Shown: one piece after another, positions 1-6,498 of the stretch | How the letters are laid out: every line of letters begins with the position of its first letter | Position numbering within the stretch: the first letter of the stretch is position 1 | Source: a virus | Taxonomy: Duplodnaviria > Heunggongvirae > Uroviricota > Caudoviricetes | Strand: one strand, 5' to 3' | Length of the DNA stretch: 6,498 nucleotides | IMG/VR virus record: IMGVR_UViG_2681813233_000001 | Notes under the pieces: model-generated | What the model was told of the DNA's origin: nothing | What the model saw: only the letters and a program-made list of their open reading frames with translations | Database searches by the model: none | Translations under genes and position numbers: made by a program

Positions 1-63
1 GCATTTGAATCCGGGCTGCGACAATCAACAGAGGAGGAGAAGAGTGACAGCAGAGCTGCGTAA
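1..63 (+). CDS. B: Portal protein gpB, C-terminal fragment (CDS starts upstream of the window)
   Basis: Frame 1 is open from the window edge to TAA at 61-63 (AFESGLRQSTEEEKSDSRAA*). It overlaps the C start at 44 by 20 nt, as at the lambda B/C junction. Only 20 codons are visible, so the identity rests on synteny and memory of lambda. Confidence 0.55.
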   Translation, partial: AFESGLRQSTEEEKSDSRAA

Positions 64-1363
64 TCTCCCGCATATTGCCAGCATGGCCTTTAATGAGCCG
101 CTGATGCTTGAACCCGCCTATGCGCGGGTTTTCTTTTGTGCGCTTGCAGGCCAGCTTGGGATCAGCCGCCTGACGGATGCGGTGTCCGGCGACAGCCTGA
201 CTGCCCAGGAGGCACCCGCGACGCTGGCATTATCCGGTGATGATGACGGACCACGACAGGCCCGCAGTTATCAGGTCATGAACGGCATCGCCGTGCTGCC
301 GGTGTCCGGCACGCTGGTCAGCCGGACGCGGGCGCTGCAGCCGTATTCGGGAATGACCGGTTACAACGGCATTATCGCCCGTCTGCAACAGGCTGCCAGC
401 GATCCGATGGTGGACGGCATTCTGCTCGATATGGACACACCGGGCGGGATGGTGGCGGGAGCATTTGACTGCGCTGACATCATCGCCCGTGTGCGTGACA
501 TAAAACCGGTATGGGCGCTGGCCAACGACATGAACTGCAGTGCAGGTCAGCTGCTTGCCAGCGCCGCCTCCCGGCGTCTGGTCACGCAGACCGCCCGGAC
601 AGGCTCCATCGGCGTCATGATGGCTCACAGTAATTACGGTGCTGCGCTGGAGAAACAGGGCGTGGAAATCACGCTGATTTACAGCGGCAGCCATAAGGTG
701 GATGGCAACCCCTACAGCCATCTACCGGATGACGTCCGGGAAACACTGCAGTCCCGGATGGATGCAACCCGCCGGATGTTTGCGCAGAAGGTGTCGGCAT
801 ATACCGGCCTGTCCGTGCAGGCTGTGCTGGATACCGAGGCTGCAGTGTACAGCGGTCAGGAGGCCATTGATGCCGGACTGGCTGATGAACTTGTCAACAG
901 CACCGATGCGATCACCGTTATGCGTGATGCACTGGATGCACGTAAATCCCGTCTCTCAGGAGGGCGAATGACCAAAGAGACTCAATCAACAACTGTTTCA
1001 GCCACTGCTTCGCAGGCTGACGTTACTGACGTGGTGCCAGCGACGGAGGGCGAAAACGCCAGCGCGGCGCAGCCGGACGTGAACGCGCAGATCACCGCTG
1101 CGGTTGCGGCAGAAAACAGCCGCATTATGGGGATCCTCAACTGTGAGGAGGCTCACGGACGCGAAGAACAGGCCCGCGTGCTGGCAGAAACCCCCGGTAT
1201 GACCGTGGAAACGGCCCGCCGCATTCTGGCCGCAGCACCACAGAGTGCACAGGCGCGCAGTGACACTGCGCTGGATCGTCTGATGCAGGGGGCACCGGCA
1301 CCGCTGGCTGCAGGTAACCCGGCATCTGATGCCGTTAACGATTTGCTGAACACACCAGTGTAA
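44..1363 (+). CDS. C: Head maturation protease / minor capsid protein gpC (S49/ClpP-like serine protease), 439 aa
   Basis: GTG start at 44 preceded by GAGGAGGAG (31-39); 439-codon ORF ending TAA 1361-1363. Translation VTAELRNLPHIASMAFNEPLMLEPAYARV... matches lambda gpC as I remember it. Candidate catalytic Ser166 (codon AGT 539-541) lies in an NCSAGQ motif. The ORF-track start at 5 (TTG) lies inside the B reading region and has no ribosome-binding site. Confidence 0.9.
   Translation: MTAELRNLPHIASMAFNEPLMLEPAYARVFFCALAGQLGISRLTDAVSGDSLTAQEAPATLALSGDDDGPRQARSYQVMNGIAVLPVSGTLVSRTRALQPYSGMTGYNGIIARLQQAASDPMVDGILLDMDTPGGMVAGAFDCADIIARVRDIKPVWALANDMNCSAGQLLASAASRRLVTQTARTGSIGVMMAHSNYGAALEKQGVEITLIYSGSHKVDGNPYSHLPDDVRETLQSRMDATRRMFAQKVSAYTGLSVQAVLDTEAAVYSGQEAIDAGLADELVNSTDAITVMRDALDARKSRLSGGRMTKETQSTTVSATASQADVTDVVPATEGENASAAQPDVNAQITAAVAAENSRIMGILNCEEAHGREEQARVLAETPGMTVETARRILAAAPQSAQARSDTALDRLMQGAPAPLAAGNPASDAVNDLLNTPV
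968..1363 (+). CDS. Nu3: Capsid scaffolding protein Nu3, nested in-frame in the 3' third of C (131 aa from ATG 968; alternative in-frame ATG at 758 gives 201 aa)
   Basis: In-frame ATG at 968 preceded by AGGAGGG (958-964), same frame and stop as C. The product (MTKETQSTTVSATASQADV...) is Ala/Gln/Glu-rich and low-complexity, typical of a scaffold. The lambda database entry places the start at the ATG equivalent to 758, which has no obvious ribosome-binding site here. The end coordinate is certain; the start is ambiguous. Confidence 0.6.
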   Translation: MTKETQSTTVSATASQADVTDVVPATEGENASAAQPDVNAQITAAVAAENSRIMGILNCEEAHGREEQARVLAETPGMTVETARRILAAAPQSAQARSDTALDRLMQGAPAPLAAGNPASDAVNDLLNTPV

Positions 1364-1372
1364 GGGATGTTT

Positions 1373-1705
1373 ATGACGAGCAAAGAAACCTTTACCCATT
1401 ACCAGCCGCTGGGCAACAGTGACCCGGCTCATACCGCAACCGCGCCCGGCGGATTGAGTGCGAAAGCGCCTGCAATGACCCCGCTGATGCTGGACACCTC
1501 CACCCGTAAGCTGGTTGCGTGGGATGGCACCACCGACGGTGCTGCCGTTGGCATTCTTGCGGTTGCTGCTGACCAGACCAGCACCACACTGACGTTCTAC
1601 AAGTCCGGCACGTTCCGTTATGAGGATGTGCTCTGGCCGGAGGCTGCCAGCGACGAGACGAAAAAACGGACCGCGTTTGCCGGAACGGCAATCAGCATCG
1701 TTTAA
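1373..1705 (+). CDS. D: Head decoration protein gpD, 110 aa
   Basis: ATG 1373 with AAGGGA (1362-1367) 5 nt upstream; stop TAA 1703-1705. Translation [27 protein letters not shown]... matches lambda gpD. The ATG at 1367 is in frame but overlaps the ribosome-binding site. Confidence 0.9.
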
Positions 1706-1726
1706 CCTTACCCTTCATCACTAAAG

Positions 1727-1747
1727 GCCGCCTGTGCGGCTTTTTTT
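1727..1747 (+). terminator. Intrinsic-terminator-like hairpin between D and E: GCCGC-CTGT-GCGGC followed by TTTTTTT
   Basis: Perfect 5-bp GC stem 1727-1731 / 1736-1740 with a 4-nt loop, extendable by A:U pairs, followed by a T7 run at 1741-1747 and a second T7 run at 1754-1760 directly before the E start codon. Confidence 0.4.
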
Positions 1748-1760
1748 ACGGGATTTTTTT

Positions 1761-2786
1761 ATGTCGATGTACACAACCGCCCAGCTGCTGGCGGCAAATG
1801 AGCAGAAATTTAAGTTTGATCCGCTGTTTCTGCGTCTCTTTTTCCGTGAGAGCTATCCCTTCACCACGGAGAAAGTCTATCTCTCACAAATTCCGGGACT
1901 GGTAAACATGGCGCTGTACGTTTCGCCGATTGTTTCCGGTGAGGTTATCCGTTCCCGTGGCGGCTCCACCTCTGAATTTACGCCGGGATATGTCAAGCCG
2001 AAGCATGAGGTGAATCCGCAGATGACCCTGCGTCGCCTGCCGGATGAAGATCCGCAGAATCTGGCGGACCCGGCTTACCGCCGCCGTCGCATCATCCTGC
2101 AGAACATGCGTGACGAAGAGCTGGCCATTGCTCAGGTCGAAGAGATGCAGGCAGTTTCTGCCGTGCTTAAGGGCAAATACACCATGACCGGTGAAGCCTT
2201 CGATCCGGTTGAGGTGGATATGGGCCGCAGTGCGGCGAACAACATCACGCAGTCCGGCGGCACGGAGTGGAGCAAGCGTGACAAGTCCACGTATGACCCG
2301 ACCGACGATATCGAAGCCTATGCGCTGAACGCCAGCGGAGTGGTGAATATCATCGTGTTTGATCCGAAAGGCTGGGCGCTGTTCCGTTCCTTCAAAGCCG
2401 TCAAGGAGAAGCTGGATACCCGTCGCGGCTCTAATTCCGAGCTGGAGACAGCGGTAAAAGACCTGGGCAAAGCGGTGTCCTATAAGGGGATGTATGGCGA
2501 TACGGCGATCGTCGTGTATTCCGGACAGTACGTGGAAAACGACGTCAAAAAGAACTTCCTGCCGGACAACACGATGGTGCTGGGGAACACTCAGGCACGC
2601 GGTCTGCGCACCTATGGCTGCATTCAGGATGCGGACGCACAGCGCGAAGGCATTAACGCCTCTGCCCGTTACCCGAAAAACTGGGTGACCACCGGCGATC
2701 CGGCGCGTGAGTTCACCATGATTCAGTCAGCACCGCTGATGCTGCTGGCTGACCCTGATGCGTTCGTGTCCGTACAACTGGCGTAA
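1761..2786 (+). CDS. E: Major capsid protein gpE, 341 aa
   Basis: ATG 1761, stop TAA 2784-2786. Translation MSMYTTAQLLAANEQKFKFDPLFLRLFFRESYPFTTEKVYL... matches lambda gpE. The ORF-track start at 1734 would place the start codon inside the upstream hairpin and T-run. Confidence 0.95.
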   Translation: MSMYTTAQLLAANEQKFKFDPLFLRLFFRESYPFTTEKVYLSQIPGLVNMALYVSPIVSGEVIRSRGGSTSEFTPGYVKPKHEVNPQMTLRRLPDEDPQNLADPAYRRRRIILQNMRDEELAIAQVEEMQAVSAVLKGKYTMTGEAFDPVEVDMGRSAANNITQSGGTEWSKRDKSTYDPTDDIEAYALNASGVVNIIVFDPKGWALFRSFKAVKEKLDTRRGSNSELETAVKDLGKAVSYKGMYGDTAIVVYSGQYVENDVKKNFLPDNTMVLGNTQARGLRTYGCIQDADAQREGINASARYPKNWVTTGDPAREFTMIQSAPLMLLADPDAFVSVQLA

Positions 2787-2788
2787 TC

Positions 2789-2815
2789 ATGGCCCTTCGG
2801 GGCCATTTTCTCTCT
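2789..2815 (+). terminator. Hairpin with UUCG-type tetraloop plus T-rich tail immediately 3' of E (ATGGCCC-TTCG-GGGCCAT-TTTCTCTCT)
   Basis: Perfect 7-bp stem 2789-2795 / 2800-2806 with loop TTCG 2796-2799, followed by the T-rich tract 2807-2815. It begins 3 nt after the E stop and sits just upstream of the FI ribosome-binding site. Confidence 0.4.
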
Positions 2816-2846
2816 GTGGAGGAGTCCATGACGAAAGATGAACTGA

Positions 2847-3224
2847 TTGCCCGTCTTCAGGTCGCTGGGTGAGCAACTGAACCGTGATGTCAGCCTGACG
2901 GGGACGAAAGAAGAACTGGTGCTCCGTGTGGCAGAGCTGGAAGAGGAGCTTGATGACACGGATGACGCTGCCGGTCAGGACACATCTGTCAGCCCGGAAA
3001 ATGCGCTGACCGGACATGAAAATGAGGTGGTATCAGCGCAGCCGGATACCGTGATTGATACGGCTGCTCTGGTCACGGTCGTGGCACTGGTGACGCTGCA
3101 TACTGATGCACTTCACGCCACGCGGGATGAGCCTGTGGCATTTGTGCTGCCGGGAACGGCGTTTCGTGTCTCTGCCGGTGTGGCAGCCGAAATGACAGAA
3201 CGCGGCCTGGCCAGAATGCAATAA
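2847..3224 (+). CDS. FI: gpFI-like DNA-packaging / head assembly protein, 5' end frameshifted relative to its native ATG at 2828 (possible pseudogene or sequencing error)
   Basis: The ORF 2847-3224 encodes ...SLGEQLNRDVSLTGTKEEL...DEPVAFVLPGTAFRVSAGVAAEMTERGLARMQ, matching lambda gpFI. The native-looking start ATG 2828 (GGAGGAG at 2818-2824) reads MTKDELIARLQVAG and stops at TGA 2870-2872 in a different frame. The long frame has only TTG 2847 as a start and no in-frame ATG until near its 3' end. Confidence 0.6.
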   Translation: MPVFRSLGEQLNRDVSLTGTKEELVLRVAELEEELDDTDDAAGQDTSVSPENALTGHENEVVSAQPDTVIDTAALVTVVALVTLHTDALHATRDEPVAFVLPGTAFRVSAGVAAEMTERGLARMQ

Positions 3225-3235
3225 CGGGAGGCGCT

Positions 3236-3589
3236 GTGGCTGATTTCGATAACCTGTTCGATGCTGCCATTGCCCGCGCCGATGAAACGATACGCGGGTA
3301 CATGGGAACGTCAGCCACCATGACATCCGGTGAGCAGTCCGGCGCAGTAATACGTGGTGTTTTTGATGATCCTGAAAATATCAGCTATGCCGGACAGGGC
3401 GTACGCGTTGAAGGCTCCAGCCCGTCCCTGTTTGTCCGGACTGATGATGTGCGGCAGCTGCGGCGCGGCGACACGCTGACCATCGGTGAGGAAAACTTCT
3501 GGATAGACCGGATTTCGCCGGATGATGGCGGAAGCTGTCATCTCTGGCTTGGGCGGGGCGTACCGCCTGCCGTTAACCGTCGCCGCTGA
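3236..3589 (+). CDS. FII: Head-tail joining protein gpFII, 117 aa
   Basis: GTG 3236 with GGGAGG (3226-3231) 4 nt upstream; stop TGA 3587-3589. Translation (V)ADFDNLFDAAIARADETIRGYMGTSAT... matches lambda gpFII. Confidence 0.9.
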   Translation: MADFDNLFDAAIARADETIRGYMGTSATMTSGEQSGAVIRGVFDDPENISYAGQGVRVEGSSPSLFVRTDDVRQLRRGDTLTIGEENFWIDRISPDDGGSCHLWLGRGVPPAVNRRR

Positions 3590-3600
3590 AAGGGGGATGT

Positions 3601-4179
3601 ATGGCCATAAAAGGTCTTGAGCAGGCCGTTGAAAACCTCAGCCGTATCAGCAGAACGGCGGTGCCCGGTGCCGCCGCAATGGCCATTAACCGCGTTGCTT
3701 CATCCGCGATATCGCAGTCGGCGTCACAGGTTGCCCGTGAGACAAAGGTACGCCGGAAACTGGTAAAGGAAAGGGCCAGGCTGAAAAGGGCCACGGTCAA
3801 AAATCCGCAGGCCAGAATCAGGGTTAACCGGGGGGATTTGCCCGTAATAAAGCTGGGTAACGCGCGGATTGTCCTGTCCCGACGCAGGCGTCGTAAAAAG
3901 GGGCAGCGTTCAGCCCTGAAAGGTGGCGGCAGCGTGCTTGTGGTGGGAAACCGTCGTATTCCCGGCGCGTTTATTCAGCAACTGAAAAATGGCCGCTGGC
4001 ATGTCATGCAGCGTGTGGCCGGGAAAAACCGTTACCCCATTGATGTGGTGAAAATCCCGATGGCGGTGCCGCTGACCACGGCGTTTAAACAGAATATTGA
4101 GCGGATACGGCGTGAGCGTCTTCCGAAAGAGCTGGGCTATGCGCTGCAGCATCAACTGAGGATGGTAATAAAGCGATGA
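3601..4179 (+). CDS. Z: Tail completion protein gpZ, 192 aa
   Basis: ATG 3601 with AAGGGGGA (3589-3596) upstream; stop TGA 4177-4179. Translation MAIKGLEQAVENLSRISRTAVPGAAAMAINRV... matches lambda gpZ. Confidence 0.9.
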   Translation: MAIKGLEQAVENLSRISRTAVPGAAAMAINRVASSAISQSASQVARETKVRRKLVKERARLKRATVKNPQARIRVNRGDLPVIKLGNARIVLSRRRRRKKGQRSALKGGGSVLVVGNRRIPGAFIQQLKNGRWHVMQRVAGKNRYPIDVVKIPMAVPLTTAFKQNIERIRRERLPKELGYALQHQLRMVIKR

Positions 4180-4571
4180 AACATACTGAACTCCGTGCAG
4201 CCGTACTGGATGCACTGGAGAAGCATGACACCGGGGCGACGTTTTTTGATGGTCGCCCCGCTGTTTTTGATGAGGCGGATTTTCCGGCAGTTGCCGTTTA
4301 TCTCACCGGCGCTGAATACACGGGCGAAGAGCTGGACAGCGATACATGGCAGGCGGAGCTGCATATCGAAGTTTTCCTGCCTGCTCAGGTGCCGGATTCA
4401 GAGCTGGATGCGTGGATGGAGTCCCGGATTTATCCGGTGATGAGTGATATCCCGGCACTGTCAGATTTGATCACCAGTATGGTGGCCAGCGGCTATGACT
4501 ACCGGCGCGACGATGATGCGGGCCTGTGGAGTTCAGCCGATCTGACTTATGTCATTACCTATGAAATGTGA
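4176..4571 (+). CDS. U: Tail terminator protein gpU, 131 aa
   Basis: ATG 4176 overlaps the Z stop (ATGA at 4176-4179); stop TGA 4569-4571. Translation [43 protein letters not shown]... matches lambda gpU. Confidence 0.9.
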
Positions 4572-4578
4572 GGACGCT

Positions 4579-5319
4579 ATGCCTGTACCAAATCCTCTGG
4601 CACCGGTGAAAGGGGCCGGGACCACCCTGTGGGTTTATAAGGGGAGCGGTGACCCTTATGCAAACCCGCTTTCAGACGATGACTGGTCGCGTCTGGCAAA
4701 AGTTAAAGACCTGACGCCCGGCGAACTGACCGCTGAGTCCTATGACGACAGCTATCTCGATGATGAAGATGCAGACTGGACTGCGACCGGGCAGGGGCAG
4801 AAATCTGCCGGAGATACCAGCTTCACGCTGGCGTGGATGCCCGGAGAGCAGGGGCAGCAGGCGCTGCTGGCGTGGTTTAATGAAGGTGATACCCGTGCCT
4901 ATAAAATCCGCTTCCCGAACGGCACGGTCGATGTGTTCCGTGGCTGGGTCAGCAGTATCGGTAAGGCGGTGACGGCGAAGGAAGTGATCACCCGCACGGT
5001 GAAAGTCACCAACGTAGGACGTCCGTCGATGGCAGAAGATCGCAGCACGGTAACAGCGGCAACCGGCATGACCGTGACGCCAGCCAGCGCTTCCGTAGTG
5101 AAAGGGCAGAGCACCACGCTGACCGTGGCATTCCAGCCGGAGGGCGCAACTGACAAGAGCTTCCGTGCGGTGTCAGCGGATAAAACAAAAGCCACCGTGT
5201 CGGTCAGTGGTATGACCATCACCGTGAAAGGTGTTGCTGCAGGCAAGGTCAACATTCCGGTTGTATCCGGTAATGGTGAACTTGCTGTGGTTGCAGAAAT
5301 CACCGTCACCGACAGTTAA
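4579..5319 (+). CDS. V: Major tail tube protein gpV, 246 aa, with C-terminal Ig-like (Big_2-type) domain
   Basis: ATG 4579 with GAGGA (4570-4574) upstream; stop TAA 5317-5319. Translation [42 protein letters not shown]... matches lambda gpV. The ORF-track start at 4549 overlaps U and has no ribosome-binding site. Confidence 0.9.
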
Positions 5320-5334
5320 TCCGGAGAGTCAGCG

Positions 5335-5757
5335 ATGTTCCTGAAAACCGAATCATTTGAACATAACGGTGTGACCGTCACGCTTTCTGAACTGTCAGCC
5401 CTGCAGCGTATTGAGCATCTCGCCCTGATGAAACGGCAGGCAGAACAGGCGGAGTCAGACAGCAACCGGAAGTTTACTGTGGAAGACGCCATCAGAACCG
5501 GCGCGTTTCTGGTGGCGATGTCCCTGTGGCATAACCATCCGCAGAAGACAAAGATGCCGTCCATGAATGAAGCCGTTAAACAAATTGAGCAGGAAGTGCT
5601 TACCACCTGGCCCACAGAGGCAATTTCTCATGCTGAAAACGTGGTAATGCGTCTGTCCGGTATGTATGAGTTTGTGGTGAATGATGCCCCTGAACAGGCA
5701 GAGGACGCCGGGCCTGCAGAGCCTGTTTCTGCGGGAAAGTGTTCGACGGTGAGCTGA
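5335..5757 (+). CDS. G: Tail assembly chaperone gpG, 140 aa
   Basis: ATG 5335 with GGAGAG (5323-5328) upstream; stop TGA 5755-5757. Translation MFLKTESFEHNGVTVTLSELSALQRIEHLALMKRQAEQ... matches lambda gpG. Confidence 0.9.
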   Translation: MFLKTESFEHNGVTVTLSELSALQRIEHLALMKRQAEQAESDSNRKFTVEDAIRTGAFLVAMSLWHNHPQKTKMPSMNEAVKQIEQEVLTTWPTEAISHAENVVMRLSGMYEFVVNDAPEQAEDAGPAEPVSAGKCSTVS

Positions 5758-6173
5758 GTTTTGCCCTGAAACTGGCGCGTGAGATGGGGCGACCCGACTG
5801 GCGTGCCATGCTTGCCGGGATGTCATCCACGGAGTATGCCGACTGGCACCGCTTTTACAGTACCCATTATTTTCATGATGTTCTGCTGGATATGCACTTT
5901 TCCGGGCTGACGTACACCGTGCTCAGCCTGTTTTTCAGCGATCCGGAGATGCATCCGCTGGATTTCAGTCTGCTGAACCGGCGCGAGGCTGACGAAGAGC
6001 CTGAAGATGATGTGCTGATGCAGAAAGCGGCAGGGCTTGCCGGAGGCGTTCGTTTTGGCCCGGACGGGAATGAAGTTATCCCCGCTTCCCCGGATGTGGC
6101 GGACATGACGGAGGATGACGTAATGCTGATGACAGTATCAGAAGGGATCGCAGGAGGAGTCCGGTATGGCTGA
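5335..6173 (+). CDS. T: Tail assembly chaperone G-T fusion made by programmed -1 ribosomal frameshift at 5733-5739; the T-frame portion is 5739-6173
   Basis: Slippery heptamer G_GGA_AAG at 5733-5739 in the G zero frame, 6 codons before the G stop. The -1 frame continues open from 5739 (VFDGELSFALKLAREMGRPDWRAMLAGMSSTEYADWH...) to TGA 6171-6173 and matches lambda gpT. The T frame has no ribosome-binding site or ATG of its own. Confidence 0.8.
5733..5739 (+). promoter_or_regulatory. -1 programmed ribosomal frameshift slippery site GGGAAAG (recoding signal for G-T)
   Basis: Heptamer of X_XXY_YYZ form, with GGA at 5734-5736 and AAG at 5737-5739 as zero-frame codons of G; the position matches the known lambda G/T frameshift site. 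Confidence 0.8.
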
Positions 6174-6498
6174 ACCGGTAGGCGATCTGGTCGTTGATTT
6201 AAGTCTGGATGCGGCCAGATTTGACGAGCAGATGGCCAGAGTCAGGCGTCATTTTTCCGGTACGGAAACTGATGCGAAAAAAACAGCGGCAGTCGTTGAA
6301 CAGTCGCTGAGCCGACAGGCGCTGGCTGCACAGAAAGCGGGGATTTCCGTCGGGCAGTATAAAGCCGCCATGCGTATGCTGCCTGCACAGTTCACCGACG
6401 TGGCCACGCAGCTTGCAGGCGGGCAAAGTCCGTGGCTGATCCTGCTGCAACAGGGTGGTCAGGTTAAGGACTCCTTCGGCGGGATGATCCCCATGTTC
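6166..6498 (+). CDS. H: Tail tape measure protein gpH, N-terminal 111 codons (CDS continues past the window end)
   Basis: ATG 6166 with GGAGGAG (6151-6157) 8 nt upstream; it overlaps the T stop (ATGGCTGA at 6166-6173). The frame is open to the window end; translation MAEPVGDLVVDLSLDAARFDEQMARVRRHFSGTETDAKKTAAVVEQSL... matches the lambda gpH N-terminus. Confidence 0.9.
   Translation, partial: MAEPVGDLVVDLSLDAARFDEQMARVRRHFSGTETDAKKTAAVVEQSLSRQALAAQKAGISVGQYKAAMRMLPAQFTDVATQLAGGQSPWLILLQQGGQVKDSFGGMIPMF

What the first reader, a model, noticed from the sequence alone, without database searches (positions are those of the whole stretch)
2828..3224. The FI homolog is out of frame with its own start codon and ribosome-binding site
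A strong ribosome-binding site (GGAGGAG at 2818-2824) and ATG 2828 encode the expected gpFI N-terminus MTKDELIARL, but this frame then reads QVAG and hits TGA at 2870-2872. The rest of gpFI (SLGEQLNRDVSLTGTKEEL... to ARMQ) continues in the +1 frame from about 2859. That frame has only a TTG at 2847 as a start, no ribosome-binding site, and no in-frame ATG until near its 3' end. The pattern fits a 1-nt insertion in a short divergent patch around 2855-2862, compared with the lambda sequence as I recall it. It could be a sequencing or assembly error, a real inactivating mutation in a defective prophage (FI is not strictly essential in lambda), or less likely a +1 recoding event.
Basis: partly seen in the sequence, partly recalled or inferred. 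Interest (0 to 1): 0.55.

Follow-up and report, generated by a model that had tools for sequence, protein, structure and literature searches.

The report
One-base insertion breaks phage FI gene
A lambda-type prophage's DNA-packaging helper gene FI carries one extra C, found in no other public sequence searched, that knocks it out of frame after 12 codons; this is an ordinary private mutation or a draft-assembly error, not a new coding mechanism.

Summary
ATG 2828, behind GGAGGAG 2818-2824, reads MTKDELIARLQVAG and stops at TGA 2870-2872. The rest of FI continues in the +1 frame to TAA 3222-3224.

The cause is one extra C at 2863. It is the only real indel in the 6.5 kb window against several close relatives. 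With it removed, the gene encodes a full-length FI protein (Pfam PF14000, 1-131 of 131), identical to the FI product of E. coli NT1N31.

The insertion allele was found in none of five public collections. The same stretch without the C occurs in 1071 of 5426 complete E. coli genomes. The window is an entire 6498-bp contig of a draft assembly (LOOX01000082.1). Every neighbouring head and tail gene is intact.

Nothing supports programmed recoding: no conservation, no good Shine-Dalgarno-like stimulator, no RNA structure and no Rfam match.

Two refinements:
- The inserted C recreates a string native to a second common FI allele. This hints at a templated origin, either gene conversion or allele mixing during assembly.
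- The premature stop forms GGG_UGA, where a spontaneous +1 slip would give full-length FI with one substitution (L13A), so the allele may be leaky.

Whether it is a real mutation or an error needs the reads. Interest is low.

The parts
2818..2824 (+). Shine-Dalgarno sequence GGAGGAG of FI, 3 nt before the ATG
   Evidence: Read directly from the sequence. It is identical in the intact relatives (alignment A1).
2828..2872 (+). Truncated FI reading frame: ATG, 14 codons (MTKDELIARLQVAG), then TGA
   Evidence: Translation. Relatives annotate FI from the same ATG.
2863..2863 (+). The extra C that shifts the frame. It is the only real indel in the window.
   Evidence: Alignment A1. Whole-window comparisons with L001, L004, L005, L006, L010 and L012. 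The insertion allele is absent from five collections. The allele without the C is in 1071 genomes.
2867..2872 (+). GGG_TGA: the last sense codon plus the premature stop. This is a possible incidental 'shifty stop', where a +1 slip (GGG to GGU) re-enters the FI frame.
   Evidence: Sequence. The simulated slip product is full-length FI with the single change L13A. The shifty-stop principle comes from PMC3082878. Its efficiency here is unknown.
2865..3224 (+). The remaining 119 codons of FI plus TAA, in the +1 frame. They are undamaged.
   Evidence: Translation. After repair the protein is identical to that of L005, with 1 synonymous nucleotide difference. Residues 72-131 match PDB 2LSM, the lambda gpFI C-terminal domain.
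2847..3224 (+). Mechanical ORF from TTG 2847 (125 aa) covering the FI remainder. No ribosome-binding site precedes it.
   Evidence: the ORF listing. Neither this product nor any other is on record for 2787-3235 of the source contig.

Best explanation
A standard lambdoid FI gene (DNA-packaging chaperone gpFI) carries one extra C at 2863, 35 bases into the coding sequence. Ribosomes that start at the normal ATG 2828 therefore terminate at TGA 2870-2872 after 14 residues. The remaining 119 codons have no proper start, so normal gpFI is not made.

I take the lesion to be a genuine, very recent, non-programmed mutation private to this strain's prophage. It is probably templated by a second FI allele, through heteroduplex or gene-conversion repair at a patch where two natural alleles differ by what amounts to a -A/+C pair of indels. 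At most it is phenotypically leaky, through spontaneous +1 slippage at GGG_UGA.

Shown: the insertion, its uniqueness, the intact state of everything else, and the allele resemblance. Inferred: that it is real rather than an assembly error, the templated origin, and any leakiness.
For: - Single insertion C2863 against three phage FI genes.
- It is the only real indel across the 6.5 kb window against L001, L004 and L005, and also against contigs that share the identical capsid protein.
- The repaired gene is full-length PF14000. Its protein is identical to the FI of E. coli NT1N31 (WP_000158876.1), with a single synonymous difference. So there has been no decay since the lesion arose.
- All ten neighbouring genes are full length.
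- The base sits in a T-C-G context, not a homopolymer, which is atypical of the usual platform indel errors.
- The insertion allele gives 0 hits in E. coli complete genomes, phages, GTDB species genomes, IMG/VR or JGI metagenomes. The control without the C gives 1071 genomes.
- Of 1162 possible single-base insertions in the repaired gene, the observed one is the only one that recreates 4 nt, out of register, of another natural allele (CGG TCG CTG). That allele is present in about 429 genomes.
Against: - The window is a short contig (6498 bp) of a draft assembly whose two ends lie inside phage genes. Repeated prophage regions are where assemblies go wrong.
- No reads and no second independent sequence with the insertion could be found.
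- The 'samples_with_this_contig 2' entry cannot be interpreted.
- The resemblance to a second allele fits equally well with reads of two prophages being mixed in a consensus step.
Confidence: 0.57

Rival explanations
1. Sequencing or assembly artefact. The real prophage has an intact FI gene, and the extra C arose in consensus building or polishing of a draft assembly. One route is cross-aligned reads of a second co-resident lambdoid prophage carrying the CGG TCG allele, which align to this allele as a mismatch plus a 1-nt deletion plus a 1-nt insertion.
For: - The window is an entire 6498-bp draft contig that ends inside phage genes.
- The insertion is seen nowhere else.
- The gene is otherwise pristine.
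- The inserted base reproduces the other allele's sequence exactly.
- E. coli genomes carry up to 5 FI copies.
Against: - It is not in a homopolymer.
- There is no other indel in 6.5 kb.
- A mixed pile-up should also mix the neighbouring discriminating sites. Yet the window is purely the LQVLG allele type at FI nt 23, 30, 32 and 92 onward.
- De Bruijn assemblers do not join paths through a 3-nt overlap (inference).
Confidence: 0.33
2. Utilised +1 ribosomal frameshifting. Full-length FI is made by a programmed slip of tRNA-Gly from GGG to GGU at the UGA stop (2867-2872), as in prfB or at CCC_UGA sites.
For: - A P-site codon whose first two bases re-pair in the +1 frame sits directly before UGA.
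- The slip product is a full-length FI that differs from the intact protein by only L13A.
- Shifty stops are an established phenomenon (PMC3082878; PMC5009743).
Against: - No homologue shares the interrupted frame: 0 in five collections, against more than 1000 intact copies of the parent allele.
- Upstream there is only a 4-nt AGGU, 4 nt before GGG, not the AGGGGG with a 3-nt spacer seen in prfB.
- The stop context is UGA-G, not UGA-C (PMC12421855).
- There is no stable local RNA structure (z = +0.86) and no Rfam family.
- The GGG_UGA arrangement is simply the first out-of-frame stop created by the insertion.
Confidence: 0.04
3. Re-initiation. Ribosomes that terminate at TGA 2870-2872 restart at TTG 2847 or at GTG 2919/2928 in the FI frame. 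This would make an N-terminally altered or truncated FI that retains the head-binding C-terminal domain.
For: - The TTG 2847 ORF covers profile positions 9-131 of PF14000.
- The C-terminal domain (PDB 2LSM) is intact.
Against: - No ribosome-binding site precedes TTG 2847 or the GTG codons.
- TTG 2847 lies 23 nt upstream of the stop and GTG 2919 lies 47 nt downstream.
- The product would lack or alter the first helix of the N-terminal domain.
- No such product is on record.
Confidence: 0.04

Closest known systems
Bacteriophage lambda gpFI (DNA-packaging chaperone; Pfam PF14000 Packaging_FI; C-terminal domain PDB 2LSM)
   Same: - Same gene position between the major capsid gene E and FII.
- Same ribosome-binding site and ATG.
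- The repaired product matches the whole Pfam profile, and its residues 72-131 match 2LSM.
- Its protein is identical to FI of many E. coli prophages.
   Different: The reading frame is broken by one inserted C after codon 12. As written, the gene gives a 14-residue peptide rather than the 131-residue protein.
prfB (release factor 2) programmed +1 frameshift, and incidental CCC_UGA 'shifty stops' such as E. coli pheL
   Same: A UGA stop sits early in the gene, directly after a codon whose tRNA can partly re-pair one base downstream. The +1 frame carries the rest of the protein (PMC3082878; PMC12421855).
   Different: - The shift codon is GGG, not CUU or CCC.
- There is no AGGGGG stimulator at the 3-nt spacing.
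- The stop context is UGA-G, not UGA-C.
- The arrangement is not conserved in any relative.
- It is a by-product of an insertion, not a selected signal.
Compensatory low-level frameshifting at indel mutations (for example the G-run indels of herpes simplex thymidine kinase, reviewed in PMC5009743)
   Same: An indel inactivates a gene, but a nearby shift-prone sequence could restore a small amount of near-native product. Here the product would carry L13A.
   Different: No expression data exist for this locus, and nothing indicates any benefit from the lesion.
Lambda G-T programmed -1 frameshift (G_GGA_AAG)
   Same: It is present in the same window at 5733-5739. It shows what a conserved, utilised recoding site in this module looks like.
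   Different: The G-T site is a conserved slippery heptamer shared by the relatives. The FI interruption is private and has no recoding signal.

Membership tests
gpFI / Pfam PF14000 Packaging_FI | Sequence match to the family profile over its full length | tested here: met
   Repaired reading: E = 8.5e-51, 172 bits (cut-off 27), profile positions 1-131 of 131. The TTG ORF alone covers profile positions 9-131.
gpFI / Pfam PF14000 Packaging_FI | C-terminal head-binding domain as in the solved lambda structure | tested here: met
   Residues 72-131 match PDB 2LSM chain A at E = 8e-29. This is a sequence match only; no structure was modelled.
gpFI / Pfam PF14000 Packaging_FI | Position between major capsid gene E and head-tail joining gene FII in a lambda-type head module | tested here: met
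   ORF order C, D, E, FI, FII, Z, U, V, G, T, H, as annotated in the relatives and in the source contig.
gpFI / Pfam PF14000 Packaging_FI | One uninterrupted reading frame from the ATG behind the ribosome-binding site | tested here: not met
   The frame stops at 2870-2872 after 14 codons, caused by the extra C2863. It is an FI gene by descent but not an intact one.
Programmed +1 frameshift of the prfB / shifty-stop kind | P-site codon able to re-pair in the +1 frame, next to a slowly decoded stop | tested here: inconclusive
   GGG_UGA: after the slip to GGU the first two pairs are kept and the third is mismatched (sequence). No published efficiency for GGG_UGA was found.
Programmed +1 frameshift of the prfB / shifty-stop kind | Shine-Dalgarno-like stimulator (AGGGGG) 3 nt upstream of the shift codon, and a weak UGA-C stop | tested here: not met
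   Only AGGU at 2859-2862, 4 nt before GGG, and the stop is UGA-G. The prfB features are described in PMC12421855.
Programmed +1 frameshift of the prfB / shifty-stop kind | The interrupted frame is conserved among homologues | tested here: not met
   0 matches for the insertion allele in five collections. The parent allele is intact in 1071 genomes. All 10 sampled loci that share the Z protein have a 131-aa FI.
Programmed +1 frameshift of the prfB / shifty-stop kind | Full-length trans-frame protein actually made | not testable with these tools
   This needs a reporter assay or mass spectrometry. The diagnostic tryptic peptide is LQVAGEQLNR.
Sequencing or assembly artefact | Error-prone context (homopolymer) or other indels nearby | tested here: not met
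   The context is T-C-G. There is no other real indel in 6498 bases against three relatives or against contigs that share the identical capsid protein.
Sequencing or assembly artefact | Comes from a fragmented draft assembly in a repeated region | tested here: met
   The window equals the whole contig LOOX01000082.1 (6498 bp) of GCA_001576375.1. Both contig ends lie inside phage genes.
Sequencing or assembly artefact | The reads do not support the base | not testable with these tools
   No read data are available. No Logan contig of the same strain was found; the five Logan contigs that share the capsid protein differ by 14-40 substitutions.
Decaying (defective) prophage pseudogene | Further lesions in the same gene or in neighbouring genes | tested here: not met
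   The FI remainder has no stop and 0 amino-acid changes against WP_000158876.1. The ten neighbouring genes have the same lengths as in the intact relatives.

The most novel reading that the evidence does not exclude
The window catches a live intermediate between two natural FI allele classes. LQVLG (CAG GTG CTG) and LRSLG (CGG TCG CTG) can be related by a compensating -A/+C indel pair, and this copy carries only the +C half. The intermediate would stay partly functional because the frameshift is immediately followed by GGG_UGA. Spontaneous +1 slippage there would yield full-length gpFI(L13A), giving a path by which compensated frameshifts could remodel a phage protein's N-terminus.
Probability: 0.05. 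Interest if true: 0.45.

Novelty: already known. Interest (0 to 1): 0.1.

Why it matters
It matters little beyond annotation. The locus should be labelled an FI pseudogene (frameshifted) or corrected if the reads disagree; it should not be read as a recoding site.

If the mutation is real, this prophage probably packages DNA poorly, which bears on whether it can be induced to give infectious particles.

The one mildly instructive point is that two common FI alleles differ at a patch equivalent to compensating indels. Mixing those alleles, whether in the cell or in an assembler, yields exactly this frameshift. That makes it a useful caution for calling pseudogenes in genomes that carry several lambdoid prophages.

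Tried and rejected
- **Insertion allele elsewhere.** I searched with a 47-mer whose flanks are too short to seed a match without the insertion, against E. coli complete genomes and phages. I also searched an exact 24-mer in GTDB species genomes, IMG/VR and JGI metagenomes. All gave 0. The control without the C gave 1071 genomes, so the method works.
- **G duplication in a hypothetical CAG TCG allele.** This was my first reading from memory of lambda. That allele does not exist in E. coli complete genomes, so I rejected it.
- **Lambda's own allele as parent.** It needs 1 indel plus 3 substitutions in the patch (L008), against 1 indel for the LQVLG allele. Rejected.
- **The 125-aa TTG ORF as a recorded protein.** It is not on record.
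- **A second sample of the same strain.** I used exact capsid and Z proteins. The capsid look-up found the source contig but only non-identical relatives. The Z protein is too common to help.
- **RNA evidence for recoding.** Rfam gave 0 matches. The local fold is no more stable than shuffled sequence.
- **A local template for the insertion.** There is no second exact copy of GGTCGCTGG in the window and no inverted repeat nearby.
- **Literature on GGG_UGA +1 frameshifting.** Nothing usable was found, and Curran 1993 is not held.
- **A paper on the source assembly.** None was found.

Full report
**What is there**

The window is the head and tail-shaft part of a lambda-type prophage. The genes run in the lambda order: C/Nu3 (44-1363), D (1373-1705), E (1761-2786), FI, FII (3236-3589), Z (3601-4179), U (4176-4571), V (4579-5319), G (5335-5757), T (5739-6173) and the start of H. 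This follows from the ORF list and from the annotation of close relatives.

The finding concerns FI. The sequence shows GGAGGAG at 2818-2824 and ATG at 2828. That frame reads MTKDELIARLQVAG and stops at TGA 2870-2872. The +1 frame carries the rest of FI without interruption to TAA 3222-3224. The only mechanical start in that frame before the body of the protein is TTG 2847, which has no ribosome-binding site.

**Where the frame breaks**

I aligned 2800-2920 with the FI genes of three sequenced phages (phiSTEC1575-Stx2k, PhiR34_1 and Kati). The alignment shows a single extra base, C2863: GGT-C-GCTGGG in the window against GGTGCTGGG in the relatives.

- Whole-window global alignments against three relatives find this C as the only real indel in 6.5 kb. 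The +G/-A pair near 5450-5461 against one relative lies inside a divergent patch of gene G and cancels out.
- The same single indel appears against contigs that encode the identical major capsid protein.
- With the C removed, the gene is 396 nt and encodes a 131-residue protein. Its FI gene differs from that of E. coli NT1N31 (annotated product WP_000158876.1) by one synonymous base and gives an identical protein.
- The repaired protein matches Pfam PF14000 (Packaging_FI) over the whole profile, with E = 8.5e-51.
- Its residues 72-131 match the solved C-terminal domain of lambda gpFI, PDB 2LSM.

So this is an FI gene by descent, undamaged apart from one base.

**How widespread the insertion is**

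I used a 47-base query centred on the insertion, whose flanks are too short to seed a megablast hit unless the insertion itself is matched. It finds nothing in 5426 complete E. coli genomes or in 50,697 phage records. An exact 24-mer finds nothing in GTDB species genomes, IMG/VR or JGI metagenome contigs. The control, the same stretch without the C, is present in 1071 of 5426 E. coli genomes. Ten loci sampled because they share the identical Z protein all have a 131-residue FI. The insertion is private to this sequence.

**Source**

An exact-protein look-up with the capsid protein identified the window as the entire 6498-bp contig LOOX01000082.1 of the draft assembly GCA_001576375.1. The locus is identical base for base. 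No protein is on record between E and FII in that record. Both contig ends lie inside phage genes. That is what happens when a genome carries more than one lambdoid prophage and the assembler cannot pass the shared sequence; this is an inference. E. coli genomes with any FI hit have up to five copies.

**Is it recoding?**

The insertion places GGG directly before TGA. A +1 slip of the P-site tRNA-Gly from GGG to GGU would re-enter the FI frame and give a full-length protein that differs from the intact one only by L13A.

A stop codon after a codon that can re-pair one base downstream is the 'shifty stop' arrangement. It is known from prfB (CUU_UGA_C) and from incidental CCC_UGA sites such as pheL (PMC3082878; PMC12421855). 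P-site identity changes its efficiency about 1000-fold (PMC2377451, citing Curran 1993).

None of the features of a utilised site is present:

- No relative shares the interruption.
- The only Shine-Dalgarno-like element upstream is AGGU, 4 nt away, rather than AGGGGG at 3 nt.
- The stop context is UGA-G.
- The local RNA folds no better than shuffled sequence (z = +0.86).
- Rfam finds nothing.

The GGG_UGA is simply the first out-of-frame stop exposed by the insertion. Some leakiness is plausible. I found no published value for GGG_UGA. Compensatory low-level frameshifting at indels is an established category (PMC5009743).

For contrast, the window does hold a genuine recoding site: the G_GGA_AAG heptamer at 5733-5739 at the G/T overlap.

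**An unexpected detail about the origin**

E. coli prophages carry at least three alleles of this patch:

- CTT CAG GTG CTG GGT (LQVLG), the window's parent type, in 1071 genomes.
- CTC CGG TCG CTG GGT (LRSLG), matched at 95% identity or more in about 429 genomes.
- Lambda's own CTC CGC TCG CTG GGT.

The first two can be aligned as one substitution plus a compensating -A/+C pair of indels four bases apart. The window has both the A and the C, hence the net +1.

I enumerated all 1162 distinct single-base insertions in the repaired gene. The observed one is the only one that recreates four bases of another natural allele out of register. This is a post-hoc observation. It still suggests the extra C was templated by a second allele rather than inserted at random.

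The templating could have happened in the cell, through patchy repair of a heteroduplex between two lambdoid prophages. It could also have happened in the computer, through reads of two prophages being mixed in a consensus step. Against the second route, every other site that discriminates the two alleles is purely of the parent type (FI nt 23, 30, 32, 92 and onward).

A simpler idea, a G duplication in a CAG TCG allele, fails because no such allele exists.

**Consequence if real**

FI is listed as essential for lambda plaque formation in a CRISPRi survey, with an efficiency of plating of 2e-5, although knock-down in the late operon can be polar (PMC10695390). From my own knowledge, FI mutants are somewhat leaky and can be bypassed by fin mutations. 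I did not verify this here.

A prophage with this allele would be expected to package DNA poorly. Because the rest of the gene and all its neighbours are pristine, the lesion is either very recent or not real.

**Verdict**

This is an ordinary one-base frameshift in a well-known gene. It is confined to one draft contig and carries no evidence of programmed recoding. My rough weights:

| Explanation | Weight |
|---|---|
| Real private mutation | 0.57 |
| Assembly or sequencing artefact | 0.33 |
| Utilised recoding | 0.04 |
| Productive re-initiation | 0.04 |

The reads of the isolate would settle it.

Noticed in passing
window 5733-5739 (G 5335-5757; T frame 5739-6173): The slippery heptamer G_GGA_AAG lies at the overlap of the tail assembly chaperone genes G and T. 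This is the classical lambda G-T programmed -1 frameshift site. It is present and intact.
   Followed up: partly
window 2856-2873; L020 and L022 2250-2275; L008 4090-4115: There are three natural allele classes of FI codons 10-13: LQVLG, LRSLG via CGG TCG, and lambda's LRSLG via CGC TCG. The first two differ by what can be read as compensating -A/+C indels four bases apart.
   Followed up: yes
window 1-6498: The window is an entire contig (LOOX01000082.1, GCA_001576375.1) of a draft assembly. Both ends fall inside genes: the portal/C overlap on the left and H on the right. This implies further lambdoid prophage copies in the same genome.
   Followed up: partly
window 2789-2806: A terminator-like hairpin, ATGGCCC-TTCG-GGGCCAT, followed by a T-rich tail lies in the 41-nt gap between E and FI. 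It is also present in the relatives aligned from 2800 onward.
   Followed up: no
window 2830-2854 and 2903-2927: There is an internal direct repeat (80% identity over 25 nt) inside the FI N-terminal coding region, encoding TKDELIARL and TKEELVLRV. A weak, sub-threshold SAP-motif hit covers FI residues 19-37.
   Followed up: no
window about 5250-5750 (gene G): Substitutions against the otherwise closest relative (L004) are clustered: 20 in one 250-nt bin, against 0-4 in most other bins. A cancelling +G/-A alignment pair lies at 5450-5461. This looks like a mosaic recombination patch.
   Followed up: no
L017 3979-4824: In one related genome (GCA_000352825.1) the tail tube gene V is called as two pieces of 141 and 136 aa instead of one of 246 aa. 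This is another apparently broken structural gene in a lambdoid prophage.
   Followed up: no
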